DNA from: Eledone cirrhosa
Taxonomy: Eukaryota
Length of the DNA stretch: 64,000 bases
NCBI GenBank assembly: GCA_964016885.1
Contig: OZ024743.1
Coordinates: forward strand, 224,130,001-224,194,000
Direction: 5' to 3'
Notes under the pieces: generated by a model
The model's database searches: none
What the model was told of the DNA's origin: nothing
What the model saw: the letters and a program-made list of their open reading frames with translations, nothing else
Translations under genes and position numbers: made by a program
Shown here: one piece after another, positions 3,917-61,574 of the stretch
Layout: each line of letters starts with the position of its first letter
Position numbering within the stretch: the stretch's first letter is position 1

Positions 3917-5755
<1,839 letters not shown>

Positions 5756-6169
5756 CGTATGTATGTTAGATGTAGACAGCGTTACCTATGGGACTCGAAC
5801 TCACTCCTGATGTGTGATGGGATGCTGTGGTACAGGTTACATCAAAGAAGACTGATACATTTTCCTGTTATTTTAAGCCTCATCTTTTCGGTCAGCACGT
5901 AAATAAACAGGCAATGCTGTCCACTTGTTTCCGTTTCTATGGACTAATATGCTCAACTTATTATGAAGCTGTTTTCTAGAATTCACAAATGGTTCAATAT
6001 TTCTAAAAAAATATGCATGAGAGTCCAATAGGTAAGTTTTTTTTTAATGTTCATGCTTTCTCTTATGGGATTTTAATTTAACTACTGATTTGCAGACTAG
6101 TCTACAGATTAGATATAAGAGAGGAAGGAATGTTATATAAAGTAACTGGTATGTTAGATCGAGACTTTA

Positions 6170-14159: not shown

Positions 14160-15379
14160 ATGCCAAAATCAACATACTGATTGCGGATTTGGTACGGGTG
14201 ATGAGAAACGTGTCCCGCATATGCAACCCCAAAGAACTAGAGAGATACATACAACACTTCATCCACCGTATGCAGTTCTCTGGTTACAACCAGAGAGATA
14301 AAATCAGAGTATATAGAGGAGCCTGAACCAAATGGGAAAAAATGGTAAATAATGACACAAATGGGACTGCCCCTTGTATAGGAGCAAATTTTGGAATAGA
14401 ATAGAAAGAACTAGGAATAAGGCTAATAGAATAAACTCATGGTATGATAGCAATAAATACCAGAGTGTAATGTTCATCGATACAACCCCTAGAGGTGAAT
14501 TAGCTTACAAATTTAGAAGGGCCCTAGATAAACATAAACTCAATATTAAGATAGTAGAAAGACCAGGTACCTCCATAAAAACATTTATTAGCAATACATA
14601 CCCTTTTCAAAGACCTGCCTGTATAGATAAGAAATGTATAATCTGTAAATTAAGCCCCCATATTAACTGTAAAACTAGAAATGTAGTAGATGTACTGAAG
14701 GACAATGTAGAGATAAAAATATAGTGTACATAGGTGAGACAGCTCGTAGTATAGGGGAACGGATAAATGAACACTGGCGAGACCTTCAAGATAGTAAAGA
14801 ATCATCTGTACTCTACCAACATGCTAAAATAGAACATAAAGGTAAATTAGAGAACATAGAAATAAAAATAGAATCTACACACAGAAAAGACGCAATGTTT
14901 AGACAAATCACAGAGGCAATAAACATAAATGAACTCCAATCAAAATTAAATAGAAAACATGAATTGAACAGCAACATCACAACTTACAATTAAGGACAAA
15001 ATGAAAACACACGCACATAGAACAAACAACCAACTAGTAACATGCAAATAAACAAATAAATAAATGAATATAAACACACACAGACACCCGGATGTAACAC
15101 ATGCGCAAACTAAGCACACAACACACACACAAAACAAGATGGCGTAGGACAGAACAAAGGAGAGGCACAAAAACAAAGAAAAGAATCCCCAGTCACTGAA
15201 GAGGTCACAGAATTGTGACGAAAGAACTTTGACAATATATGAACAATCGTCTGGTTGTGGAACCAACCAACCAACCGGAAATTTATAAATTCCTAAATTT
15301 ATAAATTTATTATAATAAATTGAAGTGAAAGCAAATGGTGCGTGTGTTTCTTATTGGCAACTTGACCCTCCCAAAGTAT

Positions 15380-17260: not shown

Positions 17261-17741
17261 ATACATATATATAGATAGATAGATATATATAGATATATAG
17301 ATATATATATATATTTGCACTGCTTGTGAATTGATGTATCTATGCTTTGCTTTGTTTTGTTTTGTTTTTTGTTTTTTTTTTTGTTTTTTTGTATTTTTGC
17401 TTTTTTGTTGTGTTTGATCATGCTGAGTAACACCCTCATTCATTTCTTGCTATCCTCTCCCAACCTCCTTGTCATCTATTGCACCATTTATGTGATAAAT
17501 TTTTGATGTAATTTTTTATGACATTTTATGACATTATGTGCGTCATGTATTGTGTGTTTTTCTATATAGCCCTGGCCTTGGGACTCCTTTACTGGTCCTT
17601 TAACCTTGTTCTGGTGACTGAGCTTGATGGAGCCTGCAACCTTTGATATATTCTTGTTTATAGGCTCTGATGATTCTTGCCATAATAAAACAATGTATTT
17701 CTAAGCACTCTTTGGTTATTCCTAAACTTATATATATATAT

Positions 17742-17945
17742 TAAAAAGTGAGGTTTTTTTACAAAATGAAAAAAAACAAAGTGTCCTACACGAGTGAAAG
17801 TATAAGGAAAAATGATGAAATCGAAAATACAACTGGAGTCTTTTTTTTCTTTTAATATATTTATTTGGTTCCTTTACCTGTTTCGCAGTTCTTGTGCTTT
17901 TCAAAAGTAGAATTGAGATGGAGGGTTTGTGGGGTTTTTTACATA
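17742..17945 (-). mobile_element. U3-A8 HHR element copy (diverged)
   Basis: Homologous to 44106-44321 and 58675-58888; motif at 17871-17908. Confidence 0.8.
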
Positions 17946-24669: not shown

Positions 24670-27967
<3,298 letters not shown>

Positions 27968-38003: not shown

Positions 38004-38240
38004 TCAGAGCAAACAGCACGGACACTCTATCTCAAAATTATTTTTGAAAAGCATTTAGAAATGCGCAACCGGTAAAAACTTAAAAACTTAAAACCACAAC
38101 TTAATACTAACCCATACAATCACTAATACTCTTTTATTCCCAATTAAACCATTTTTCAACTGTGAACAATTTGTCAGCATTTTCTATTCCGTTTACCAAT
38201 ATATAATAACTTGTGTGTTACACCTCGATTCTTTTAACTA
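38004..38240 (+). mobile_element. ~200-bp element with U3-A8 HHR-like motif, duplicated at 39773-39971
   Basis: TTT-TTGAAAA-GCATTT AG AAATGC-GCAA-CCGG-TA-AAA. Confidence 0.65.
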
Positions 38241-39759: not shown

Positions 39760-39994
39760 TAGAGCAAACAGATCAGAGCAAACAGCACGGACACTCTATC
39801 TCAAAATTATTTTTGAAAAGCATTTAGAAATGCGCAACTGGTAAAAACTTAAAAACTTAAAACCACAACTGAATACTAACCCATACAATCACTAATACTC
39901 TTTTATTCCTAATTAAACCATTTTTCAACTGTGAACAATTTGTCAGTATTTTCTATTCCGTTTACCAATATACATATATATATATATACATATA

Positions 39995-41524
39995 TGAGAG
40001 CTATACAAGCCATGTATAAAGAAACAGTCAGCAAGGTTAGAATTAACAACGAATATAGTGAAGAGTTTAGCGTAAAAGTTGGTGTTCATCAGGGCTCTGT
40101 TCTTAGCCCCCTACTATTTATTATTGTCCTTCAGGCTATAACAGTGGAGTTCAAGACCGGCTGCCCATGGGAACTCCTATACGCAGATGATCTAACGCTC
40201 ATAGCTGAATCAATGGCTGAGCTAGAGAAGAAATTCCAAACATGGAAGCACGGCCTAGAATCAAAAGGCCTTAAAATTAACCTGGCTAAGACTAAAGTTC
40301 TAGTTTGTAGGAAAGAAAATAAGGCGCCGGTCCCTTCCGGGAAATGGCCATGCTCAGTGTGTAGGAAAGGCGTAGGTAGAAACTCCATTTTATGTCCCAA
40401 ATGCAAAGTATGGGTGCATAAAAGATGTAGTGGGATCACAGGTAAGCTAACTAAGAACATAGATTTTACATGTGGCCGGTGCTCTGGTGCAATAAGTAGC
40501 AGCAAGTGCCCAAAAATACTAGCTCTTTCAATTGCGTAGAGGGTTCTATAGAAATAGTGGACAGCTTCCGTTACCTGGGTGACAAAATCAGCAGTGGGGG
40601 AGGGTGCTCTGAAAGTACAGTAGCTAGAGTCAGAACTGGATGGAAAAAGTTCAGAGAGCTTATACCACTATTAGCCGCTAAAGGGTTCTCCCTAAAATGA
40701 AAGGCAGGCTGTATGATGCCTGCATATGAACAGCAATGTTGCATGGCAGTGAGACCTGGGCATTGTGTGCAGAGGATATACGCAGACTAGAGAGGAACGA
40801 AGCTTGCATGCTCCGCCGGATGTGTAATAGTAATATACGCAAACGGCAAAGCATAAACAAACTAAGGGAAAAATTAGAAATAAGAGGGATCAGATGTTGT
40901 TTACTCGAGAGAAGGCTACGTTGGTATGGTCACGTGATGCGCATGAAAGACGACAGCTGTATAACAAAGTGCAAGGCAATAAAGATAGACGGTAGCCACG
41001 GAATAGGCAGACCTAGAAAATCCTGGGACGAGCTGATAAACTCCGACCTCACACACTTACACCTCTCCAAGACAATGTCACTGGACCGAGATCTTTGGCG
41101 GCACTCAGTAATAGAGAAGACCCGCCTTACCTAAATACAAAGTAAAACCTACTACAGTCAGTAGGCATCGCTAACAAAATACACCCCCGTCCCACCACCC
41201 CCACCCCATCCACACCGCCCCTTTCAATGTAAAGTTATGTTGGTGCCACAACATCCAGGCCGAAACAAATGAGATCGTGTAGGTATCACGACAAAAAACA
41301 CACAGTCCACGCTGTAATGTGGCCGTGTAGGCAACACGGTAAAAACCTCCCAGTCCCACACTGTAAATGTGGTTGGTGTTAGGAAGGGCATCCAGCTGTA
41401 GAAAACCCGCCAGACAGTCCTATGCGAGCAAGACAACCACTCTTGCCTCAAGTGGGAAAACTCCCATCCAAACCCATGCAAGCGTGGAACATGGACGTTA
41501 AACGATGATGATGATGATGATGAT
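39995..41524 (+). mobile_element. RTE LINE, 5'-truncated
   Basis: [35 protein letters not shown]; (GAT)n tail. Confidence 0.95.
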
Positions 41525-42815: not shown

Positions 42816-43463
<648 letters not shown>

Positions 43464-43765: not shown

Positions 43766-44105
43766 TTACCAATTTATATACATATATTACAATTTACAAC
43801 CAATCAAATTACATTTATAAAAAAAAGCCTTCGTGAACCCCTTTTTTTTAAGTAAAAAGAAATTCAAACAAACTGGCGCGAAAGCTGATGTGCTTATTCA
43901 CGTGACTGCATCAACCAACCAAACTTCACTCATATATGAAAAAACAACCTGAGCCCCACCCCCCCCCTTGTTTGAAGAACTTTGTAACGCGAACTGGTGT
44001 GAAATTTATTATACTTATTGACCAACCAATCAAATTACTTCTCTAAAAACCTGGCGTTTCAAGCCACGTTTTTCCATATAAAACAAGTAACATTCAAAGA
44101 CCAAC

Positions 44106-44321
44106 CAGATGTGAGAAAAACCACAGACCCTCCATCTCAACTCTACTTTTGAAAAGCAGAAGAACTGCGAAACCGGTAAAGGAACCAAATAAATATATAC
44201 ATATTTTCTTTTAAATAAGACTCCAGTTGCATTTTCGAATTCATCTTTTTTTCTTTATACTTTCACTCATGTAGGACACCTCGGTTATTTTTCATTTTGT
44301 AAAAACACCTCACTTTCTAAT
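44106..44321 (+). mobile_element. U3-A8 HHR element copy (motif at 44145-44182)
   Basis: ACTT-TTGAAAA-GCAG AAGAA CTGC-GAAA-CCGG-TA-AAGG. Confidence 0.82.
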
Positions 44322-44384
44322 ACATATATATACATATATATATACATATATATATACATATAAATATATATAATATATATATAC

Positions 44385-44672: not shown

Positions 44673-45195
44673 ACGGGGGTGTGTTTTGATAGAGATGCCT
44701 ACTGACTGTAGTAGGTTTTACTTTGTATTTAGGTAAGGCGGGTCTTCTCTATTACTGAGTACCGCCAAAGATCTCGGTCCAGTGACATTGTCTTGGAGAG
44801 GTGTAAGCGTGTGAGGTCGGAATTTATCATGTCGTCCCAGGTTTTTCTGGGTCTGCCTACTCCGTGGCTACCGTCTATCTTTATTGCCCTGCACTTTGTT
44901 ATACAGCTGTCGTCTTTCATGCGCATCACGTGACCGTACCAACGTAGCCTTCTCTCGAGTAAACAACATCTGATCCCTCTTATTTCTAATTTTTTCCTTA
45001 GTTCGTTTATGCTTAGCCGTTCACATATATTACTATTGCACATCCAGCGGAGCATGCAAGCTTCGTTCCTCTCTAGTCTGCGTATATCCTCTGCACACAA
45101 TGCCCAGGTCTCACTGCCATGCAGCATTGCTGTTCGTATGCAGGCATCGTATAACCTGCCTTTCATTTTTAGGGAGAACCCTTTAGCGGCTAATA
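44673..45195 (-). mobile_element. RTE LINE 3' fragment fused to a SINE B body
   Basis: ORF 44729-45166; junction at 44672/44673. Confidence 0.92.
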
Positions 45196-45261
45196 GTTCT
45201 CCCTAAAAATGAAAGGCAGGTTATACGATGCCTGCATACAAACAGCAATACATATATATAC

Positions 45262-45292
<31 letters not shown>

Positions 45293-46040
45293 CATACATA
45301 TATATATATATATCCCTGTGAAGTATAATGTAAATGCCATTTTTCTTATCTCTCTCCAGCCTATCGGTCCATTCATTCATATTGTTCTAAATAATCTTCT
45401 CTCTGCTATCGGTCCATTCATTCATATATCCGTTTCATCGCCCAAAATCCAATCTTTGCTCTCTCTCAATGCTATTCTATAATTCTGTCTGGTTGTTTCT
45501 AAATAATCTTCTTGTATTTTAATGCTATTCTATTATTCTGTCTGGTTGTTTCTAAATAATCTTCTTGTATTTTAAAACCCCATTATTCGCTTATTATTAC
45601 TGTTATATGCTTCCCCAATTATGCCCAAAATTCGAAGATTTCATTTAAAACCTCTCGCTAACTACCCCATTTGTTTTTCTAAAATAACAATCTTGTTTGT
45701 TTAAATTTAGCCGAAAAAAAAAAAAAAAAATTCTAGAATTTATAAAATGGCCTCATTGTCCCTCTTATCCTTTACCCCCCCCCCCCCCCCCCCCACTATA
45801 TCGTATTACGCGCCAGCTAGTTCACCCTCAGTTCACCCTTTCAATCACTCCCTTCTCTCACCAAATATAAATAATCTTCTCTCTGCTAACTACCCCATAT
45901 CCCTCCCTCCCGCCCCCACTCTCCACCTTATTATTTGGACCAATCACAAGTCAACGGCCTATGCTATCACTTCTGGCTGCTTTTCGATATGATGGATGGA
46001 CTAAGGAATTTCTGGAGAGTCTGAAGAATCTGGACACTCA

Positions 46041-49000
46041 ATGACAATGCCAAAGATAACAACAAATTCACCTCATGCTGCTGGACGAAAGGGCAAAGCC
46101 CCCTCCTCTTTGTTTCGGCCGCGGATGGCCAACATAACCCCAACCCCATCCCCCTCACCCCTCCCTGCGCCCCATCCTCCAAACACAATCCAAAACTTCA
46201 GAGTTGGTACCATGAATGTAGGCACCTTAAAAGGCCGCTCTAACGAGGTTGTAGAAATGCTTGAACGTAAGGAGGTTGATGTTTGCTGTATCCAAGAGAC
46301 CAGGTGGAGGGGCGGGTCTGCTAGATTCATTGTGGGTAAAAAACGTTGCTATAAGCTTTTCTGGGTGGGAAATGACAATGGGATCGGCGGGGTAGGAATC
46401 ATGTTAGCAGAAAAATGGGTGGATAAGATAATAGATGTAAATAGAGTAAATGACAGAATAATTAAAATAAGACTTGTTCTAAATAGAACTACTGTGACAG
46501 TAATATCGGCATACGAGCCCCAATCCGGACTGCCTGGCGCTATAAAAAACAAATTCTATGAGACACTGATGCTCACTACCTCCCAAATAACCGACAGTGA
46601 CTATATAATTATTGCTGGCGACCTAAATGGCCACGTTGGACAACATTGTGACGGCTATGATGGAATCCACGAAGGCTATGGGTTCGGTACTAGAAACGAG
46701 GAAGGCTCCAGAATCCTGGAATTCTGTGATGCAAATAACCTAACTATCTGTAACACAAACTTCAAAAAACGAGACAATCACTTGATCACCTACAGATCAG
46801 GGGAACCTACCAGCCAGGTAGATTATATCCTTACCAGAAGACGTGACAGAGTGTCTGTTGTAAACACTAAATCCCTCCCCCATGAAGAATGCACCTCCCA
46901 ACATAGACTGATAATTAGCGACCTCATAGTCAGAACGAGACGTACTAGACAGCAGAAGAGGACTATCCTCAGGAGAAAAATATGGAAGCTAAAGGACCCT
47001 ACAGCCAGAAATAAATTTAAAAGCATATTACTTGATGCTTTCGACAGTAAAGAAGAGCAATTAGAGTCGTACAATATAGAGGAACAGTGGGAATTCCTGA
47101 AAGCAAACCTGCTGGTGGCAGCAGACGAAGTCTGTGGCTGGAGCAGGCCTGTAGGCAGGAGGAGAGTAACATGGTGGTGGAACAGTAAGGTGGAGGAGTC
47201 AATCAACACCAAAAAGCAGGCTTGGAAAGTATGGCGGGATGGGGTAAGTAGAGAAGACTATCAAGTGGCTAGGAGACAAGTGTACTTCGCAAGAAGGGAA
47301 TCAGAGGAAAGAAAGTTCAAGCATGTTCTACAACGCGAGGACCAAAAACGTGAGGTGTTCAGGATTGCTAGGCAATGTGTCAAGGAAAACCGTGATATTG
47401 TCGGGGAGAAGTGTGTACTTAATGATGATGGCGTACTTGCCATCACTGACGCTGATAAGAAGGTAGCTTGGAAGTGTCACTACGAAAGGCTACTAAATGA
47501 GGAGAATAAATGGGAGAAAGACAGTCTCCCCCACATTGACCCAATAAAGGGACCAGCAGTGTTAGTCGAAGGTAGTATAATAAGTAAGGCAATCAAAGAT
47601 ATGAAGACGGGTAAGGCGGCTGGGCCTTCGGAAATAGTTGCTGAGATGCTGAAAGCCTCTGGAACGGTGGGACACACCATGGTCACCTGGATAGTAAACC
47701 AAGTCATATAGAATGGGGTTGTTCCGAAGGACTGGCGTAGCAGCAGCATCATTAACTGCTACAAGGGTAAAGGAGACGCCCTAGATAGGAGTAACTATAG
47801 AGGCATTAAATTAATCGACCAGGTCATGAAGGTCATGGAAAAAGTAATAGCGCAACTAATCAGAGAGAGAATTGATCTAGATGAAATGCAGACGCTCTTT
47901 TCATTGTACGACAACTACAGGAGAAGTACCTAGCTAAAAGTAAACCTCTATACTTAGCTTTTGTCGATTTGGAGAAAGCCTTCGACAGAGTTCCCCGTTC
48001 CATTATCTGGTGGGCTCTTAGAAAACTAGGTGTTGATGAATGGCTTGTGAGAGCTATACAAGCCATGTATAAAGAAACAGTCAGCAAGGTTAGAATTAAC
48101 AACGAATATAGTGAAGAGTTTAGCGTAAAAGTTGGTGTTCATCAGGGCTCTGTTCTTAGCCCCCTACTATTTATTATTGCCCTTCAGTCTATAACAGTGG
48201 AGTTCAAGACTGGCTGCCCATGGGAACTCCTATACGCAGATGATCTAACGCTCATAGCTGAATCAATGGCCGAGCTAGAGAAGAAATTCCAAACATGGAA
48301 GCACGGCCTAGAATCAAAAGGCCTTAAAATTAACCTGGCTAAGACTAAAGTTCTAGTTTGTAGGAAAGAAAATAAGGCGCCGGTCCCTTCCGGGAAATGG
48401 CCATGCTCAGTGTGTAGGAAAGGCGTAGGTAGAAACTCCATTTTATGTCCCAAATGCAAAGTATGGGTGCATAAAAGATGTAGTGGGATCACAGGTAAGC
48501 TAACTAAGAACATAGATTTTACATGTGGCCGGTGCTCTGGTGCAATAAGTAGCAGCAAGTGCCCATAAAATACTAGCTCTTTCAATTGCGCAGAGGGCTC
48601 TATAGAAATAGTGGACAGCTTCTGTTACCTAGGTGACAAAATCAGCAGTGGGGGAGGGTGCTCTGAAAGTACAGTAGCTAGAGTCAGAACTGGATGGAAA
48701 AAGTTCAGAGAGCTTATACCACTATTAGCCGCTAAAGGGTTCTCCCTAAAATGAAAGGCAGGCTGTATGATGCCTGCATACGAACAGCAATGTTGCATGG
48801 CAGTGAGACTTGGGTATTGTATACAGAGGATATACGCAGACTAGAGAGGAACGAAGCTTGCATGCTCCGCTGGATGTGTAATAGTAATATACGCGAACGG
48901 CAAAGCATAAACGAACTAAGGGTAAAATTAGAAATAAGAGGGATCAGATGTTGTTTACTCGAGAGAAGGCTACGTTGGTATGGTCACGTGATGCGCATGA

Positions 49001-53586: not shown

Positions 53587-54375
53587 ATACATACGTATAC
53601 ATATATATATATACATACATATACATATATATACATACATACATATATATATATACATACATACATATACATATATATACATATATATACATATATATAT
53701 ATATACATACATATACATATATATACATATATATACATTCATACATACATATACATATATATACATATATATACATTCATACATACATATACATATATAT
53801 ACATATATATATATATACACATATATACATTCACATATATATACATATATATATACATATATACATATACATATATACATACACATATATATATACATAT
53901 ATACATACACACATATATACATATATACATAAACATATATATATACATATATACATACACATATATATACATGGAGGCACATGGCTTAGTGGTTAGAGCA
54001 TTGGGCTTGCAATCGAAAGGTTGTGAGTTCAATTCTCAGACCGGGTGATGTGTTGTTTCCTTGTGCAAGAGACTTTATTTCACATTGCTCCAGTTTACTC
54101 AGCTGTAGAAATGAGATGATAGGGACTGGGGTCCATATCATTCCACTGTAAAGAGGTCGTAGAGGTGCCACGGCAAAAAAAAAAAGCACCCAGCACTCAC
54201 TGTAAATGAGGTTGGTGTTAGGAAGGGCATCCAGCTGTAGAAATCAAGCCAGAATCAGTTCCCGTCCCACCCTTGCAAGCAGGGAAAAGCGGACGAAAAT
54301 GAAATGATGATGATGATGATGATACATACACATATATATATATACATATATATATATACATATATATATATATAC

Positions 54376-54498: not shown

Positions 54499-57400
54499 CA
54501 TCATCATCATCATCATCGTTTAACGTCTATCTTCTACGCTAGCATGGGTTTGGACGGGAATTGTCCCACTTGAGGCAAGATTGGTTGTCTTACTCGTGTA
54601 GGACTGTCTGGCAGGTTTTCTACGGCTGGATGCCCTTCCTAACACCAACCACGTTTACAGTGTGGTCTGGGAGGTTTTTACCGTGTTACCTATACGGCCA
54701 CATTACAGCGTGGACTGTGAGTTTTTTTTTTTTTTGTCATGACACCTACACAACCTCATTAATTTAGGACTGGATGTTGTGGTACCAACATAACTTTACA
54801 TCGAAAGGCGTGGTGTAGATGGGGGTGGGGGTAGTGGAATGGGGGTGTATTTTGGTTAAGAGGTGCCTACTGACTTTAGGTTTCGCTTTGTACTTAGGCA
54901 AGGCAGGTCTTCTGTATTACTGCGTAGTGCCAAAGATCTTGGTCCAGTGACATTGTCTTGGAGAGGTGTAAGGTCAGAATTTATCAAGTCATCCCAGATT
55001 TTTCTGGGTCTGCCTACTCCGTAGCTACCGTCTATTTTGATCGCCTTGCACTTTTTATACAGCTGTCGTCTTTCATGCGCATCACATAACCGTACCAACG
55101 TAGTCTTCTCTCAAGTAAACAGCATCTGATCCCTCTTATTCCTAATTTCTCACTTAGTTCATTTATGCTTTGCCGTTCACATATATTACTATTACACATC
55201 CAACGAAGCATGCAAGCTTCGTTCCTCTCCAATCTGCATAGATCCTCTGCACACAATGCCCATGTTTCACTGCCATGTAACATTGCTGTTCGTATGCAGG
55301 CATCATAGAGCCTGACTTTCATTTTTAGAGAGAAACCTTTAGCGGCCAATAGTGGTATAAGCTCTCTGAACTTTTTCCATCCCGTTCTGACTCTAGCTAC
55401 TGTACTTTCAGCGCACCCTCCACCACTGCTGATTTTGTCAACCAGTTAACGGAAATGAGCTAGTATCCTGTGGGCAGTTGCTACTACTTATTGCACCTGA
55501 GCACAGGCCACATATAAAATCTATGTTCTTAGTTAGCTTACCTGTGATCCCACTACATCTTTTATGCACCCATACTTTGCATTTGGGACATAAAATTGAG
55601 TTTCTGCCTACTCCTTTCCTACACACTGAGCATGGCCATTTCCCAGAGGGGACCAGTGCCCTATTTTCCTTCCTACATACTAGAACTTTAGTCTTAGACA
55701 AATTAATTTTAAGACCTTTTGATTCTAGGCCATGCATCCATGTTTGGAATTTCTTCTCTAGTTCAGCCATTGATTCAGCTATGAGGGTTAGATCATCTGC
55801 CTATGCGCAGCCGGTCTTGAACTCCTCTGTTATAGCCTGAAGGGCAATAATAAATAGGAGGGAGCTAAGGACAGAGCCCTGATGAACACCAACTTTTACG
55901 CTAAACTCTTCACTATATTTATTGTTAATTCTAACCTTGCTGACTGTTTCTTTATACATGGCTTGTATAACTCTCACAAGCCATTCATCAACACCTAGTT
56001 TTCTGAGAGCCCACCAGATAATGGGGGCGTCGGACCCTGTCGAAGACTTTTTCCAAGTCAACAAAAGCTAAGTATAGGGGTTTACTTTTAGCTAGGTACT
56101 TCTCCTGTAGTTGTCGTACAAGGAAAAGAGCGTCTGTGGTACTTTTACCTGACACAAACCCAAACTGCATTTCATCTAGATCAATTCGTTCTCTGATTAG
56201 TTGTGCTATTACTTTTTCTGTGACCTTCATGACCTAGTCAATTAATTGAATGCCTCTATAGTTTCCCCTATCTAGGGCATCACCTTTACCCTTGTTGCAG
56301 TTAATGATGATGCTGCTATGCCAGTCCTTTGGTACGACCCCATTCTGTATGACTTGGTTTACTATCCGGGTGACCATAGTGTGTCCTACCGTTCCAGATG
56401 CTTTCAGCATTTCAGCAACTATTTCCGAAGGCCCAGCCGCCTTGCCCGTCTTCATATCTTTGATTGCCTTATTTATTATACTACCTTCAACTTGCACTCC
56501 TGGTCCCTCTATTGGATCGTTGTGGGGGAGACTGTCTTTCTCCCATTTATTCTCCTCATTTAGTAGCCTTTCGTAGTGACACTTCCAAGCTACCTTCTTA
56601 TCAGCGTCAGTGATGGCAAGTACACCATCATTATTACGGACACACTTCTCCCCGACAATATCACGGTTTTCCTTGACACATTGCCTAGCAATCCTGAACA
56701 CCTCGCGTTTTTGGTCCTTGCGTTGTAGAACATACTTGAACTTTCTTTCCTCTGATTCCCTTCTTGCGAAGTACACTTGTCTCCTAGCCACTTGATAGTC
56801 TTCTCTACTTCCCCCATCCCACCATACTTTCCAAGCCTGCTTTTTGGTGTTGATTGACTCCTCCACCTTACTGTTCCACCACCAAGTTACTCTCCTCTTG
56901 CCTATAGGTCTGCTCCAGCCACAGACTTCATCTGTCGCCTTCAGCAGGTTACCTTTCAGGAATTCCCACTTTTCCTCTATATTGTACGACTCTAATTGCT
57001 CTTCCTTACTGTCGAAAGCATCAAGTAATATGCTTTTAAATTTAACTTCCATATATTTAACTTCCATATTTTTCTCCTGAGGATTGTCCTCTGCTGTTGT
57101 TGAGTACGTCTTGTCCTGACTATGAGGTCGCTAACTATGAGGTGCATTCTTCATGGGGGAGGGATTTAGTGTTTACAACAGACATCTGTCACATCTTCTG
57201 GTAAGGATATAATCTATCTGACTGGCGTGTTCCCCTGATCTATAGGTGATCAATGATTGTCTCGTTTTTTGAAGTTTGTGTTACAGATAGTTAGGTTATT
57301 TGCGTCACAGAATTCCAGGATTCTGGAGCCTTCCTCATTTCTAGTACCAAACCCATAGCCTCCATCGATTCCGTCAAAGCCATCACAATGTTGTCCAACG

Positions 57401-57797
57401 TGACCATTTAGGTCGCCAGAAATAATTAAGTAGTCACTGTCGGTTATTTGGGAGGTAGTGAGCATTAACGACCCATAGAATCTGTCTTTTATAACGCCAG
57501 GCAGTCCGGATTGGGGTGCATACGCAGATATTATTGTCATAGTAGTTCTATTTAGGACAAATTTTAATTATTCTGTCGTTCACTCTATTTACGTCTATTA
57601 TCTTATCTGCCCACTTTTCTGCTAGCATGATTCCTACTCCACCCAGCCCATTGTTATTTCCCACCCAGAAAAGCTTATAGCATCGTTTTTTACCCACAAT
57701 GAATCTAGCAGACCCACCCCTCCACCTGGTCTCTTGAATACAACAAACATCAACTTCCTTACGTTCAAGCATCTCTACAACCTCGTTAGAGCAACCT
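54494..57797 (-). mobile_element. Near full-length RTE LINE, decayed, 5'-truncated in the APE domain
   Basis: ORF pieces 55032-57772 are homologous to 46041-49188; (CAT)n tail. Confidence 0.96.
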
Positions 57798-57803
57798 TTT
57801 ACA

Positions 57804-57916
<113 letters not shown>

Positions 57917-58115
57917 GCAAAAGTTCTATTTAAATTGTTGGGATACAACAACCAAATATTTTTATAACTGATATAAAGCACTCAACTAGTATTTGGAGTA
58001 AACATACGATACTAACAAATGGAAACTATATTTATAAAAGCATATTTATTTCATTATTTCAAGGGCACCAAGTTATGTATAATGAAATAATAAATATGGT
58101 TTTATAAATTGTTAA
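57917..58115 (-). mobile_element. pLTR tail of the 2500-2607 family, partly folded back; second copy at 63886-64000
   Basis: AAATGGAAACTATATTTATAAAA..CATATTTATTT..TTTCAAGGG shared with 2512-2570. Confidence 0.7.
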
Positions 58116-58520: not shown

Positions 58521-58523
<3 letters not shown>

Positions 58524-58888
58524 AAAAAAGAGATGAAATCGAAAATGCAACTGGAGTCTTATTTTTTTTTTAAATATATATATTTATTTGGTTTCTTTAC
58601 CAGTTTCGCAGTTCTTCTGCTTTTCAAAAGGTGAGTTGAGATGGAGGGTCTGTAGTTTTTCTCACATTTTCTCAGATGTGAGAAAAACCACAGACCCTCC
58701 ATCTCAACTCACCTTTTGAAAAGCAGAAGAACTGCGAAACCGGTAAAGGAATCAAATAAATATATATATTTTTTTTAAAAATAAGACTCCAGTTGCATTT
58801 TCGATTTCATCTCTTTTTCTTTATACTTTCACTCGTGTAGGACACCTCGGTTATTTTTCAATTTGTAAAAAAAACCTCACTCTCTAAT
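58521..58888. mobile_element. Fold-back U3-A8 HHR element: palindrome 58521-58820 (centre ~58671) plus tail
   Basis: Plus-strand motif at 58712-58749: CCTT-TTGAAAA-GCAG AAGAA CTGC-GAAA-CCGG-TA-AAGG; mirrored at ~58594-58631. Confidence 0.88.
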
Positions 58889-58918
58889 ATATATATATAT
58901 TAGAAAGTGAGGTTATAC

Positions 58919-60076: not shown

Positions 60077-61574
60077 AGGTTAGAATTAACAACGAATATA
60101 GTGAAGAGTTTAGCGTAAAAGTTGGCGTCCATCAGGGCTCTGTTCTCAGCCCACTACTATTTATTATTGCCCTTCAGGCTATAACAGAGGAGTTCAAGAC
60201 AGGCTGCCCATGGGAACTCCTATACGCAGACGACCTGACACTCATAGCGGAATCAATGGCCGAGCTAGAGAAGAAATTCCAAACATGGAAGCACGGCCTA
60301 GAGTCAAAAGGACTTAAAATTAACCTGGCTAAGACCAAAGTACTAGTTTGTAGGAAAGAAAACAAGGCGGCGGTCCCTTCTGGGAAATGGTCGTGCTCGG
60401 TGTGTAGGAAAGGCGTAGGTAGAAACTCCATTTTATGTCCTAAATGCAAAGTATGGGTGCATAAAAGATGTAGTGGGATCACAGGTAAGCTAACTAAGAA
60501 CATAGATTTTACATGTGGCCGGTGCTCTGGTGCAATAAGTAGCAGCAAGTGCCCACAAGCTACTAGCTCTTTCAATTGCGCAGAGGGTTCTATAGAAATA
60601 GTGGACAGCTTCCGTTACCTGGGCGATAAAATCAGCAGTGGGGGAGGGTGCTCTGAAAGTACTGTAGCTAGAGTCAGAACTGGTTGGAAAAAGTTCAGAG
60701 AGCTTATACCACTATTAGCTGCTAAAGGGTTCTCACTGAAAATGAAAGGCAGGTTGTACGATGCCTGCATACGAACAGCAATGCTGCATGGCAGTGAGAC
60801 CTGGGCATTGTGTGCAGAGGATATACGCAGACTAGAGAGGAACGAAGCTTGCATGCTCCGCTGGATGTGTAACAGTAATATACGTGAACGGCAAAGCATA
60901 AACGAACTAAGGAAAAAATTAGAGATAAGAGGGATCAGATGTTGTTTACTCGAGAGAAGGCTACGTTGGTATGGACACGTGATGCGCATGAAAGTCGATA
61001 GCTGTATAACAAAGTGCAGGGCAATAAAGATAGACGGTAGTCACGGAATAGGCAGACCTAGAAAAACCTGGGACGAGCTGATAAACTCCGACATCACACA
61101 CTTACACCTCTCCAAGACAATGTCACTGGACCGTGACCTTTGGCGGTACCCAGTAACAGAGAAGACCCGCCTTACCTAAATATATAGTAAAACCTACTCC
61201 AGCCAGTAGGCATCCCTAACAAAATACACCCCGTCCCACCACCCCCACCCCTACCCCATCCACACCACCCCGTTCTATGTAAAGTTATGTTGGTGCCGCG
61301 CCATCGAGGCCGAAACAAATGAGATCGTGTAGGTGTCACGACAAAAAAACACACAGTCCACGCTGTAATGTGGCCGTGTAGGCAACACGGTAAAAACCTC
61401 CCAGACCCACACTGTAAATGTGGTTGGTGTTAGGAAGGGCATCCAACTGTAGAAAACCTGCCAGACAGTCCTATGCGAGCAAGACAATCACTCTTGCCTC
61501 AAGTGGGACTACCCCCGTCCAAACCCATGCAAGCGTGGAACACGGACGTTAAACGTTGATGATGATGATGATGA
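60077..61574 (+). mobile_element. RTE LINE, 5'-truncated, uninterrupted C-terminal ORF (to 61179)
   Basis: 307-aa ORF with PHD-like finger and LRWYGHVMR; (GAT)n tail. Confidence 0.96.

What the first reader, a model, noticed from the sequence alone, without database searches (positions are those of the whole stretch)
58521..58888. Hammerhead family with compensated U3-A8 catalytic core (UUGAAAA), also as a fold-back
Seen: CCTT-TTGAAAA-GCAG/CTGC-GAAA-CCGG-TA-AAGG at 58712-58749, with the same core at 58594-, 44145+ and 17871-. Established: core positions 3 and 8 form a Watson-Crick pair, normally C3-G8, and U3-A8 is a rare compensated variant that CUGANGA searches miss. Inference: the variant is fixed in a multi-copy family with a palindromic ACCGGT stem III, so it is likely functional, possibly as a dimer.
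Basis: partly seen in the sequence, partly recalled or inferred. Interest (0 to 1): 0.82.

Follow-up and report, generated by a model that had tools for sequence, protein, structure and literature searches.

The report
Penelope retroelement stub with variant hammerhead
This is a short mirror-image scrap of a very abundant Penelope-type jumping gene that carries a hammerhead-shaped RNA motif with an already published core variant (U3-A8), so it is ordinary, and this particular copy is likely unable to fold into a working ribozyme.

Summary
58525-58886 is two head-to-head fragments of the terminal repeat (pLTR) of a Penelope-like element (PLE), set in (TA)n. Full-length copies (about 4.7 kb, RT plus GIY-YIG nuclease, Neptune/Nematis-type linker) occur elsewhere in the genome. 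The 26-nt core has 12,435 exact copies. The matching C3 pattern has 55, none with C3-G8, so U3-A8 is fixed. A hammerhead origin is supported by helix I and II covariation across three sister families and by relatives with C3-G8 in the same architecture. But U3-A8 in PLE hammerheads is published (about 1,300 in Schistosoma), as are the palindromic helix III, the dimer model and the inverted pLTR with a tail. 'Fixed, therefore functional' does not follow. A sister family with an A13C core change reached 6,258 copies. The fold-back hairpin (-228 kcal/mol) is predicted to bury the motif, and U3 can pair with the cleavage-site A17. No RNA data were found, so cleavage is untested. The scan noted U3-A8 PLE stubs before on other DNA. 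Side finding: a conserved -1 frame overlap between ORF1 and the RT ORF.

The parts
58525..58667 (-). Short inverted pLTR arm; it stops at the element's internal TTCTT/TATA site and runs into (GA)n/(TA)n
58594..58631 (-). Second hammerhead copy, decayed: helix III palindrome broken (ACTGGT), helix I mismatch
58668..58672 (.). Inversion junction (small extra fold-back piece)
58673..58886 (+). Long pLTR arm. It begins about 30 nt downstream of a TATA-like motif in full pLTRs (near the likely start site, inferred) and ends about 30 nt before the ORF1 ATG of full elements
58712..58749 (+). Minimal type I hammerhead motif with U3-A8 core, 4-bp helix I, 4-bp helix II and palindromic ACCGGT helix III; predicted cut between 58745 and 58746 (after GUA)
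58819..58886 (+). One-sided extension ('tail', about 68 nt) present only on the long arm
   Evidence: known PLE feature
58887..58914 (.). (TA)n target repeat followed by a short inverted piece of the arm end
43790..44332 (+). Same family: 5'-truncated 3' end with promoter-like upstream sequence (CCAAT-like and TATAAAA motifs) and an intact hammerhead at 44145-44182
17729..17944 (-). Older, diverged copy of the same pLTR; hammerhead 17871-17908 with broken palindrome
38038..38080 (+). Sister family B motif: U3-A8 core with GCAA in place of GAAA (A13C); second copy at 39807-39849

Best explanation
This locus is a doubly truncated, head-to-head pair of terminal-repeat fragments of an endonuclease-containing Penelope-like retrotransposon inserted in a TA repeat, and its U3-A8 minimal hammerhead is likely a weak, dimer- or protein-dependent self-cleaver in the full element but is predicted to be buried in a long hairpin here. 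Shown: family identity, parent element, copy numbers, arm geometry and cross-family covariation. Inferred: the parent RNA starts in the upstream pLTR, about 40 nt before the hammerhead. The element's RT/GIY-YIG protein nicks (TA)n and copies from two start points about 68 nt apart, which gives the long and short arm ends. Early termination with fold-back self-priming gives the inversion. In the parent RNA two hammerheads (5' and 3' pLTR, or two RNAs) could pair through ACCGGU and cut after GUA. Cleavage is likely slow and likely not required for each round of transposition.
For: Parent elements: L091 and L178-L180, L182-L185 each carry two direct pLTR hammerheads 4.6-5.0 kb apart around RT and GIY-YIG coding sequence with a CGRSNCGTC linker; Pfam RVT_1 E 2.7e-6, just under the curated cut-off; 859 homologues, many with RVT_1 and GIY-YIG domains. 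Geometry: among the first 100 genome matches there are 17 head-to-head pairs within 350 bp and no tail-to-tail pair. Head-to-head pLTR, tail and palindromic junction are described for PLEs. Hammerhead identity: across families A, B and C (ORF2 49-54% identical), N7 varies A/U/C and N17 varies A/U. Helix II changes C-G,A-U (A) to A-U,U-A (C), and helix I position 2.2/1.2 changes U-A to A-U, while U3,U4,G5,A6,A8,A9,G12,A14,A15.1,U16.1 stay. The two closest metagenome PLE loci with a sense-strand motif (L221, L224) have C3-G8 in the same no-bulge, 4-nt-palindrome layout. Over 80 PLE loci the 3:8 pair was C-G 24, U-A 7, mixed 0. Core substitutions in 54 copies chosen by flanking sequence: 6 seen, 12.8 expected, P 0.03. 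Dimer fold -18.9 vs two monomers -9.4 kcal/mol. Fold-back: -227.6 kcal/mol, stem II probability about 1e-18.
Against: Cleavage is untested and no RNA run was listed. Rfam gives no hammerhead match even at E 10. Even the single long arm folds away from the hammerhead (stem II 0.16, helix I 0.004). The 24:7:0 tally holds repeated copies and two weak minus-strand U-A hits, so its P value overstates independence. The within-family conservation test is borderline and the core is A-rich. The clade call (Neptune vs Nematis) rests on a linker motif, not a tree. The start site and the self-priming steps are inferred from other PLEs.
Confidence: 0.8

Rival explanations
1. The motif in this PLE clade no longer cleaves. 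It is a hammerhead-derived fold kept for another job (RNA dimerisation through ACCGGU, protein binding) or is decaying slowly, and transposition does not need it.
For: Sister family B has C13 in 98 of 100 listed of 6,258 exact copies, and its top copies are 96-99% alike. In an exhaustive double-mutant scan of a type III hammerhead only the G3-C8 swap rescued the core; other doubles there were low. U3 can pair with A17, the analogue of the inhibitory C3-G17 pair; probability 0.66 as monomer and 0.61 as dimer in the 58716 copy. The distant U3-A8 loci L230, L255, L264 and L270 have U or C at 17. In an Anolis PLE, hammerhead mutants did not affect insertion in vitro. An older subfamily has G10.1-U11.1 and a 3-bp stem II.
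Against: The U3-A17 pairing is 0.12 or less in the other 8 U3-A8 motifs folded. Natural U3-A8 hammerheads are described, and the pair was reported active in vitro (citing earlier work I could not read). Families A and C keep every other core base over about 50% protein divergence, with variation at exactly N7 and N17.
Confidence: 0.3
2. One reading: each copy, including this fold-back, is a functional ribozyme and the two arms supply the dimer.
For: A palindromic helix III and a favourable dimer fold for the isolated motif.
Against: The two arms lie on opposite strands, so one transcript holds one sense motif and its antisense and folds into a hairpin of about 140 bp. The inverted copy has a broken palindrome. 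The stub lacks the upstream promoter-like region.
Confidence: 0.05
3. CCG/GTAA at the cleavage site is conserved mainly as the 5' splice site of a 5'-UTR intron, with the 3' site at CTCGTGTAG about 95 nt downstream, so splicing and self-cleavage compete.
For: GT at 58743-44 is kept in A, B and C. A and C share a pyrimidine tract ending in TAG at a matching place (sequence). PLE pLTRs are known to hold 5'-UTR introns.
Against: No precisely spliced genomic copy; the 2 hits are microhomology deletions. No such joint in four contig sets of unknown type. Family B lacks the matching AG. A splice site does not explain helix II covariation.
Confidence: 0.15

Closest known systems
Minimal type I hammerheads in pLTRs of metazoan PLEs, U3-A8 variant of Schistosoma mansoni Cercyon elements (Cervera and de la Pena 2014, PMC4209133; read parts 1-2 of 4: abstract, results, discussion, start of methods)
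   Same: pLTR location, short helix I, U3-A8 core (about 1,300 hits there), palindromic helix III variants, dimer model, pairs on opposite strands 100-700 bp apart, mostly truncated copies.
   Different: Here helix II is 4 bp with no bulged base after A9 (there 7-8 bp with a bulge), helix III is a 6-nt ACCGGU palindrome, N17 is A, copy number is about ten times higher, and a sister family carries A13C.
EN+ PLE insertions with inverted 5'-truncated pLTR and one-sided tail (Arkhipova et al. 2013, PMC3846280; Craig et al. 2021, PMC8557442 and preprint; passages read)
   Same: Head-to-head inversion with a palindromic junction, tail on one arm, (TA)n target, CX2-5CxxC linker of Neptune/Nematis.
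   Different: The tail is about 68 nt rather than 30-40. The element has a 400-aa ORF1 overlapping the RT ORF in the -1 frame; the Fig. 1 legend mentions a frameshifted ORF1 in PLEs, but I could not see which clades.
Poseidon PLE of Anolis carolinensis, PAc (Frangieh et al. 2024, PMC11167929; passages read)
   Same: pLTR hammerhead near the ORF start, two RT start sites that define the tail, AT-rich targets.
   Different: PAc has C3-G8, and its cleavage was measured (protein-assisted, dispensable for insertion in vitro). Here the motif lies about 170 nt upstream of the ATG and nothing is measured.
Natural U3-A8 core hammerheads (Perreault et al. 2011, PMC3088659; passages read)
   Same: Covarying U3-A8 pair.
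   Different: Those examples were found among many core variants. Here U3-A8 is the shared state of at least three high-copy PLE families.

Membership tests
EN+ Penelope-like element | RT with C-terminal GIY-YIG nuclease linked to this repeat | tested here: met
   L091 and L178-L185 family A copies; Pfam RVT_1 (that ORF piece ends before the nuclease motif); homologues with PF00078 and PF01541
EN+ Penelope-like element | Direct pLTRs flanking the ORF (partial tandem) | tested here: met
   Two same-strand hammerheads 4.6-5.0 kb apart in 7 of 7 family A regions fetched and in L091
EN+ Penelope-like element | Inverted truncated pLTR, head to head, with a one-sided tail | tested here: met
   17 head-to-head vs 0 tail-to-tail pairs within 350 bp in the first 100 matches; long plus short arm in 20 of 30 loci by a strict pattern (loci chosen with a query spanning the centre)
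Neptune/Nematis clades | CX2-5CxxC linker between RT and nuclease | tested here: met
   CGRSNCGTC in L091, L182, L183, L184; CGRPNCGTC in L180
Neptune/Nematis clades | Placement in the RT tree with named references | not tested
   No named reference set was fetched
Type I hammerhead ribozyme | Core Y-U-G-A-N-R-A ... G-A-A-A ... U-H with a Watson-Crick 3:8 pair | tested here: met
   U3-A8, H17 = A; 12,435 exact cores
Type I hammerhead ribozyme | Three helices supported by covariation | tested here: met
   Helix I and II compensatory changes across families A, B, C and relatives; helix III forms only as a dimer
Type I hammerhead ribozyme | Match to an Rfam hammerhead model | tested here: not met
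   No hammerhead hit at gathering score or E 10. The canonical-core PLE motifs in the window were also missed at gathering score, so the test has little power for minimal motifs.
Type I hammerhead ribozyme | Loop I-loop II tertiary contact | not tested
   Helix I is short and open; minimal PLE motifs lack a recognisable contact
Type I hammerhead ribozyme | Site-specific self-cleavage | not testable with these tools
   No assay; no RNA run listed
Non-LTR retrozyme (tandem 170-400 nt hammerhead repeats; definition recalled) | Head-to-tail tandem monomers without an ORF | tested here: not met
   Close neighbours are head to head, and the repeat runs into an RT element

The most novel reading that the evidence does not exclude
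A whole PLE clade has pushed its hammerhead past catalysis (U3-A8 with A17 in family A, plus A13C in family B) while keeping the fold and the ACCGGU palindrome, and has still made more than 18,000 copies. The PLE hammerhead would then serve as an RNA dimerisation or protein-binding signal rather than as a cutter, and families A, B and C form a ready-made natural series to test why PLEs carry ribozymes.
Probability: 0.25. Interest if true: 0.55.

Novelty: new member of a known kind. Interest (0 to 1): 0.2.

Why it matters
The locus itself is an ordinary insertion scar, and its core variant is published. The residual value is comparative. The role of hammerheads in PLEs is still open, and this genome holds three related high-copy families that differ at defined core positions (A: U3-A8/A17; B: also C13; C: A17 or U17), which could be assayed side by side. 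It also shows that CUGANGA-only searches miss more than 12,000 motifs in one genome.

Tried and rejected
1) A C3-G8 ancestor inside family A. One search gave 16 matches vs 8 in the control; two (L140, L142) were old family A copies with C3-G8. Of the 30 loci nearest L140, 21 parsed (9 did not); the 20 other than L140 itself all had U3, and 18 had A8. So L140 is an isolated double change and not a subfamily. 2) Spliced retrocopies: 0 precise, 2 microhomology deletions; uninformative, because PLE copies usually keep introns. 3) Expression: no RNA holder listed; four contig sets of unknown type gave no splice joint and cannot show RNA ends. 4) Rfam: only sub-threshold miRNA hairpin models from the fold-back. 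5) One search used a pattern with one base too many in helix III and returned chance level (230 vs 206); it was corrected (1,480 vs 199). 6) The MAFFT alignment of 16 motifs misplaced the 5' strand of stem II, so pairs were read by motif in a script. 7) Literature terms 'C3U'+'G8A', 'U3A8' and 'Penelope-like'+'frameshift'+'slippery' found 0 papers. 8) Lunse et al. (PLE hammerheads cleave as dimers) and Przybilski and Hammann 2007 were seen only as reference-list titles; they and the unseen supplements of PMC4209133 may already hold U3-A8 rate data or mollusc examples.

Full report
Observation. The motif is as described: 58712-58749 has helix I CCUU/AAGG, core U3-U4-G5-A6-A7-A8-A9, helix II GCAG/CUGC, GAAA, palindromic ACCGGU and A17. 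Copies lie at 58594-58631 (-), 44145-44182 (+) and 17871-17908 (-); only two of the four keep the palindrome. 58525-58818 is a 92% inverted repeat, and the right arm runs on to 58886; both ends meet (TA)n or (GA)n.

What the repeat is. The genome is 3.0 Gb. The only hits named for an animal among the closest homologues of the element's protein are Octopus bimaculoides entries at 74% and 65% identity, so it is likely an octopus (inference). A DNA search gave 724 candidates, and the best of the 40 scored are 97-100% identical. Of the 30 loci fetched, 21 show both arms by a strict pattern and 20 of these are one long plus one short arm (chosen with a query across the centre). The window copy at 44106 carries extra upstream sequence; searching with it led to loci that run back into the end of a nuclease ORF. 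L091 holds a decayed full element with two direct repeats 4.6 kb apart. Seven of seven further family A regions do likewise; L179 has an open 695-aa RT frame. RVT_1 matches at E 2.7e-6, and homologues carry RT and GIY-YIG domains. The CGRSNCGTC linker fits the Neptune/Nematis signature given by Craig et al. (passages). So the repeat is a PLE pLTR: in the parent the hammerhead lies about 70 nt after a TATA-like motif and about 170 nt before the ORF1 ATG.

The fold-back. In the first 100 genome matches of the core, 17 adjacent pairs lie head to head within 350 bp and none tail to tail; within 5 kb it is 25 vs 1. An inverted truncated pLTR, a palindromic junction and a one-sided tail are standard for EN+ PLEs and were attributed to self-priming (PMC3846280 passages). 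In an Anolis PLE the tail is the stretch between two RT start sites (PMC11167929 passages). The fold-back is therefore a product of insertion, not a device of the ribozyme. A transcript across it folds into one hairpin of -227.6 kcal/mol with essentially no chance of stem II; the long arm alone gives stem II 0.16 and helix I 0.004.

Is U3-A8 fixed, and is the motif a hammerhead? The exact 26-nt core occurs 12,435 times, control 0. With C3 and positions 7-8 free there are 55 matches, all C3-A8. An older subfamily is also U3-A8 (20 of 20 U3, 18 of 20 A8 among parsed neighbours), so two C3-G8 copies are isolated. Two sister families share U3-A8: B (ORF2 54% identical) and C (49-54% over fragments). 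Across them N7 and N17 vary, helix II changes from GCAG/CUGC to GAUG/CAUC, and helix I covaries at 2.2/1.2, although family C1/C3 has only a 2-bp helix I. In 80 related PLE loci from metagenomes the same descriptor gave 31 hits: 24 C-G, 7 U-A, 0 mixed, with some repeats and two weak hits among them. The closest two with a sense-strand motif have C3-G8 in the same layout. Within family A, core positions carried 6 substitutions against 12.8 expected in 54 copies (P 0.03), which is weak support. Rfam did not detect the motif. I conclude that it is a real member of the PLE minimal hammerheads by sequence and structure.

Does it cut? Untested. For: the full core is kept in A and C; the dimer is favoured (-18.9 vs -9.4 kcal/mol; intermolecular helix III 0.89-0.92 in the young A copies); natural U3-A8 cores are described and were reported active in vitro (PMC3088659 passages). 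Against: PLE minimal hammerheads cleave poorly even as dimers (PMC4209133); a full double-mutant scan of another hammerhead found only the G3-C8 swap to rescue (PMC9901934 passages); U3 can pair with A17 as C3 does with the inhibitory G17 (PMC3884650 passages), at 0.66 in this copy but 0.12 or less in the others; family B, with C13 in 98 of 100 listed copies, reached 6,258 copies (that A13 is needed for activity is recalled knowledge, consistent's core consensus); hammerhead mutants did not hinder insertion in the Anolis system. I put detectable cleavage by family A dimers, or with protein, at about 0.55, and activity of this fold-back copy at under 0.1. No RNA run was listed. A possible 5' splice site at the cleavage site found no support.

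Comparison and novelty. Cervera and de la Pena 2014 report U3-A8 in Schistosoma PLEs (about 1,300 hits), palindromic helix III variants, the dimer model and opposite-strand pairs. Perreault et al. 2011 report natural U3-A8. Earlier notes of this scan reached the same reading on other DNA (AI notes, not counted as support); a look-up by this sequence found none. The finding is a new member of a known kind. The latter is hinted at in a published figure legend and was not found by one literature search.

Verdict. Observation confirmed; interpretation partly supported; interest 0.2. The most novel reading not excluded is a hammerhead kept as a non-catalytic signal, at probability 0.25 and interest 0.55.

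Noticed in passing
L179 (reverse-strand position 1741), L180, L184, L181; metagenome L216, L217, L218, L220, L222, L224, L276: The parent element has a 400-450 aa ORF1 that overlaps the RT/EN ORF in the -1 frame at a conserved U UUU UUA G (ORF1 reads N-H-F-L-D, ORF2 reads F-F-R). It is present in families A and B. Of the 8 metagenome loci checked at 35-47% identity it is present in 5 in frame, as U UUU UUG in 2 more (read by eye), and absent in L223, whose match starts at a broken frame. Likely programmed -1 frameshifting. A frameshifted ORF1 in PLEs is mentioned in a figure legend of PMC8557442 without clades visible to me.
   Followed up: partly
window 38038-38080 +, 39807-39849 +: Sister family B: U3-A8 core with C13 in 98 of 100 listed of 6,258 exact copies; parent element at L181, ORF2 54% identical to family A.
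   Followed up: yes
L186-L213, L296-L298: Family C: U3-A8, stem II GAUG/CAUC with a long loop, N7 U or C, N17 A or U; the pattern gave 1,480 matches vs 199 control and most of the 100 listed are this family; it lies next to related RT/EN fragments.
   Followed up: partly
window 16688 +, 28098 -, 61878 - and 62088 +: Other hammerhead motifs with canonical C3-G8 cores. 61878/62088 form another head-to-head pair, with a palindromic AUAUAUAU helix III.
   Followed up: no
window 3917-5785 -, 25556-26239 +, 14356-14724 +: Other PLE-like RT/GIY-YIG fragments by eye. The 566-aa part of the 622-aa frame that was scanned had no Pfam hit at E 0.001.
   Followed up: no
L001-L030: The 4-nt loop at the inversion centre occurs in both orientations relative to the long arm (for example L003 vs L012, L013, L027), as a hairpin intermediate resolved either way would give.
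   Followed up: no
window 43210-43267 -, 53982-54039 +, about 58230: tRNA-derived SINE-like heads (Rfam tRNA 29-31 bits).
   Followed up: no
window 39913-41134, 44729-48568, 55032-57925, 60079-61179: Many fragments of a LINE-type AP-endonuclease/RT element (family label from recall).
   Followed up: no
G000:C1:348863669-348949710: Seven matches of the C3 pattern, six of them spaced about 9.6 kb apart: a tandem amplification that inflates the count of 55.
   Followed up: no
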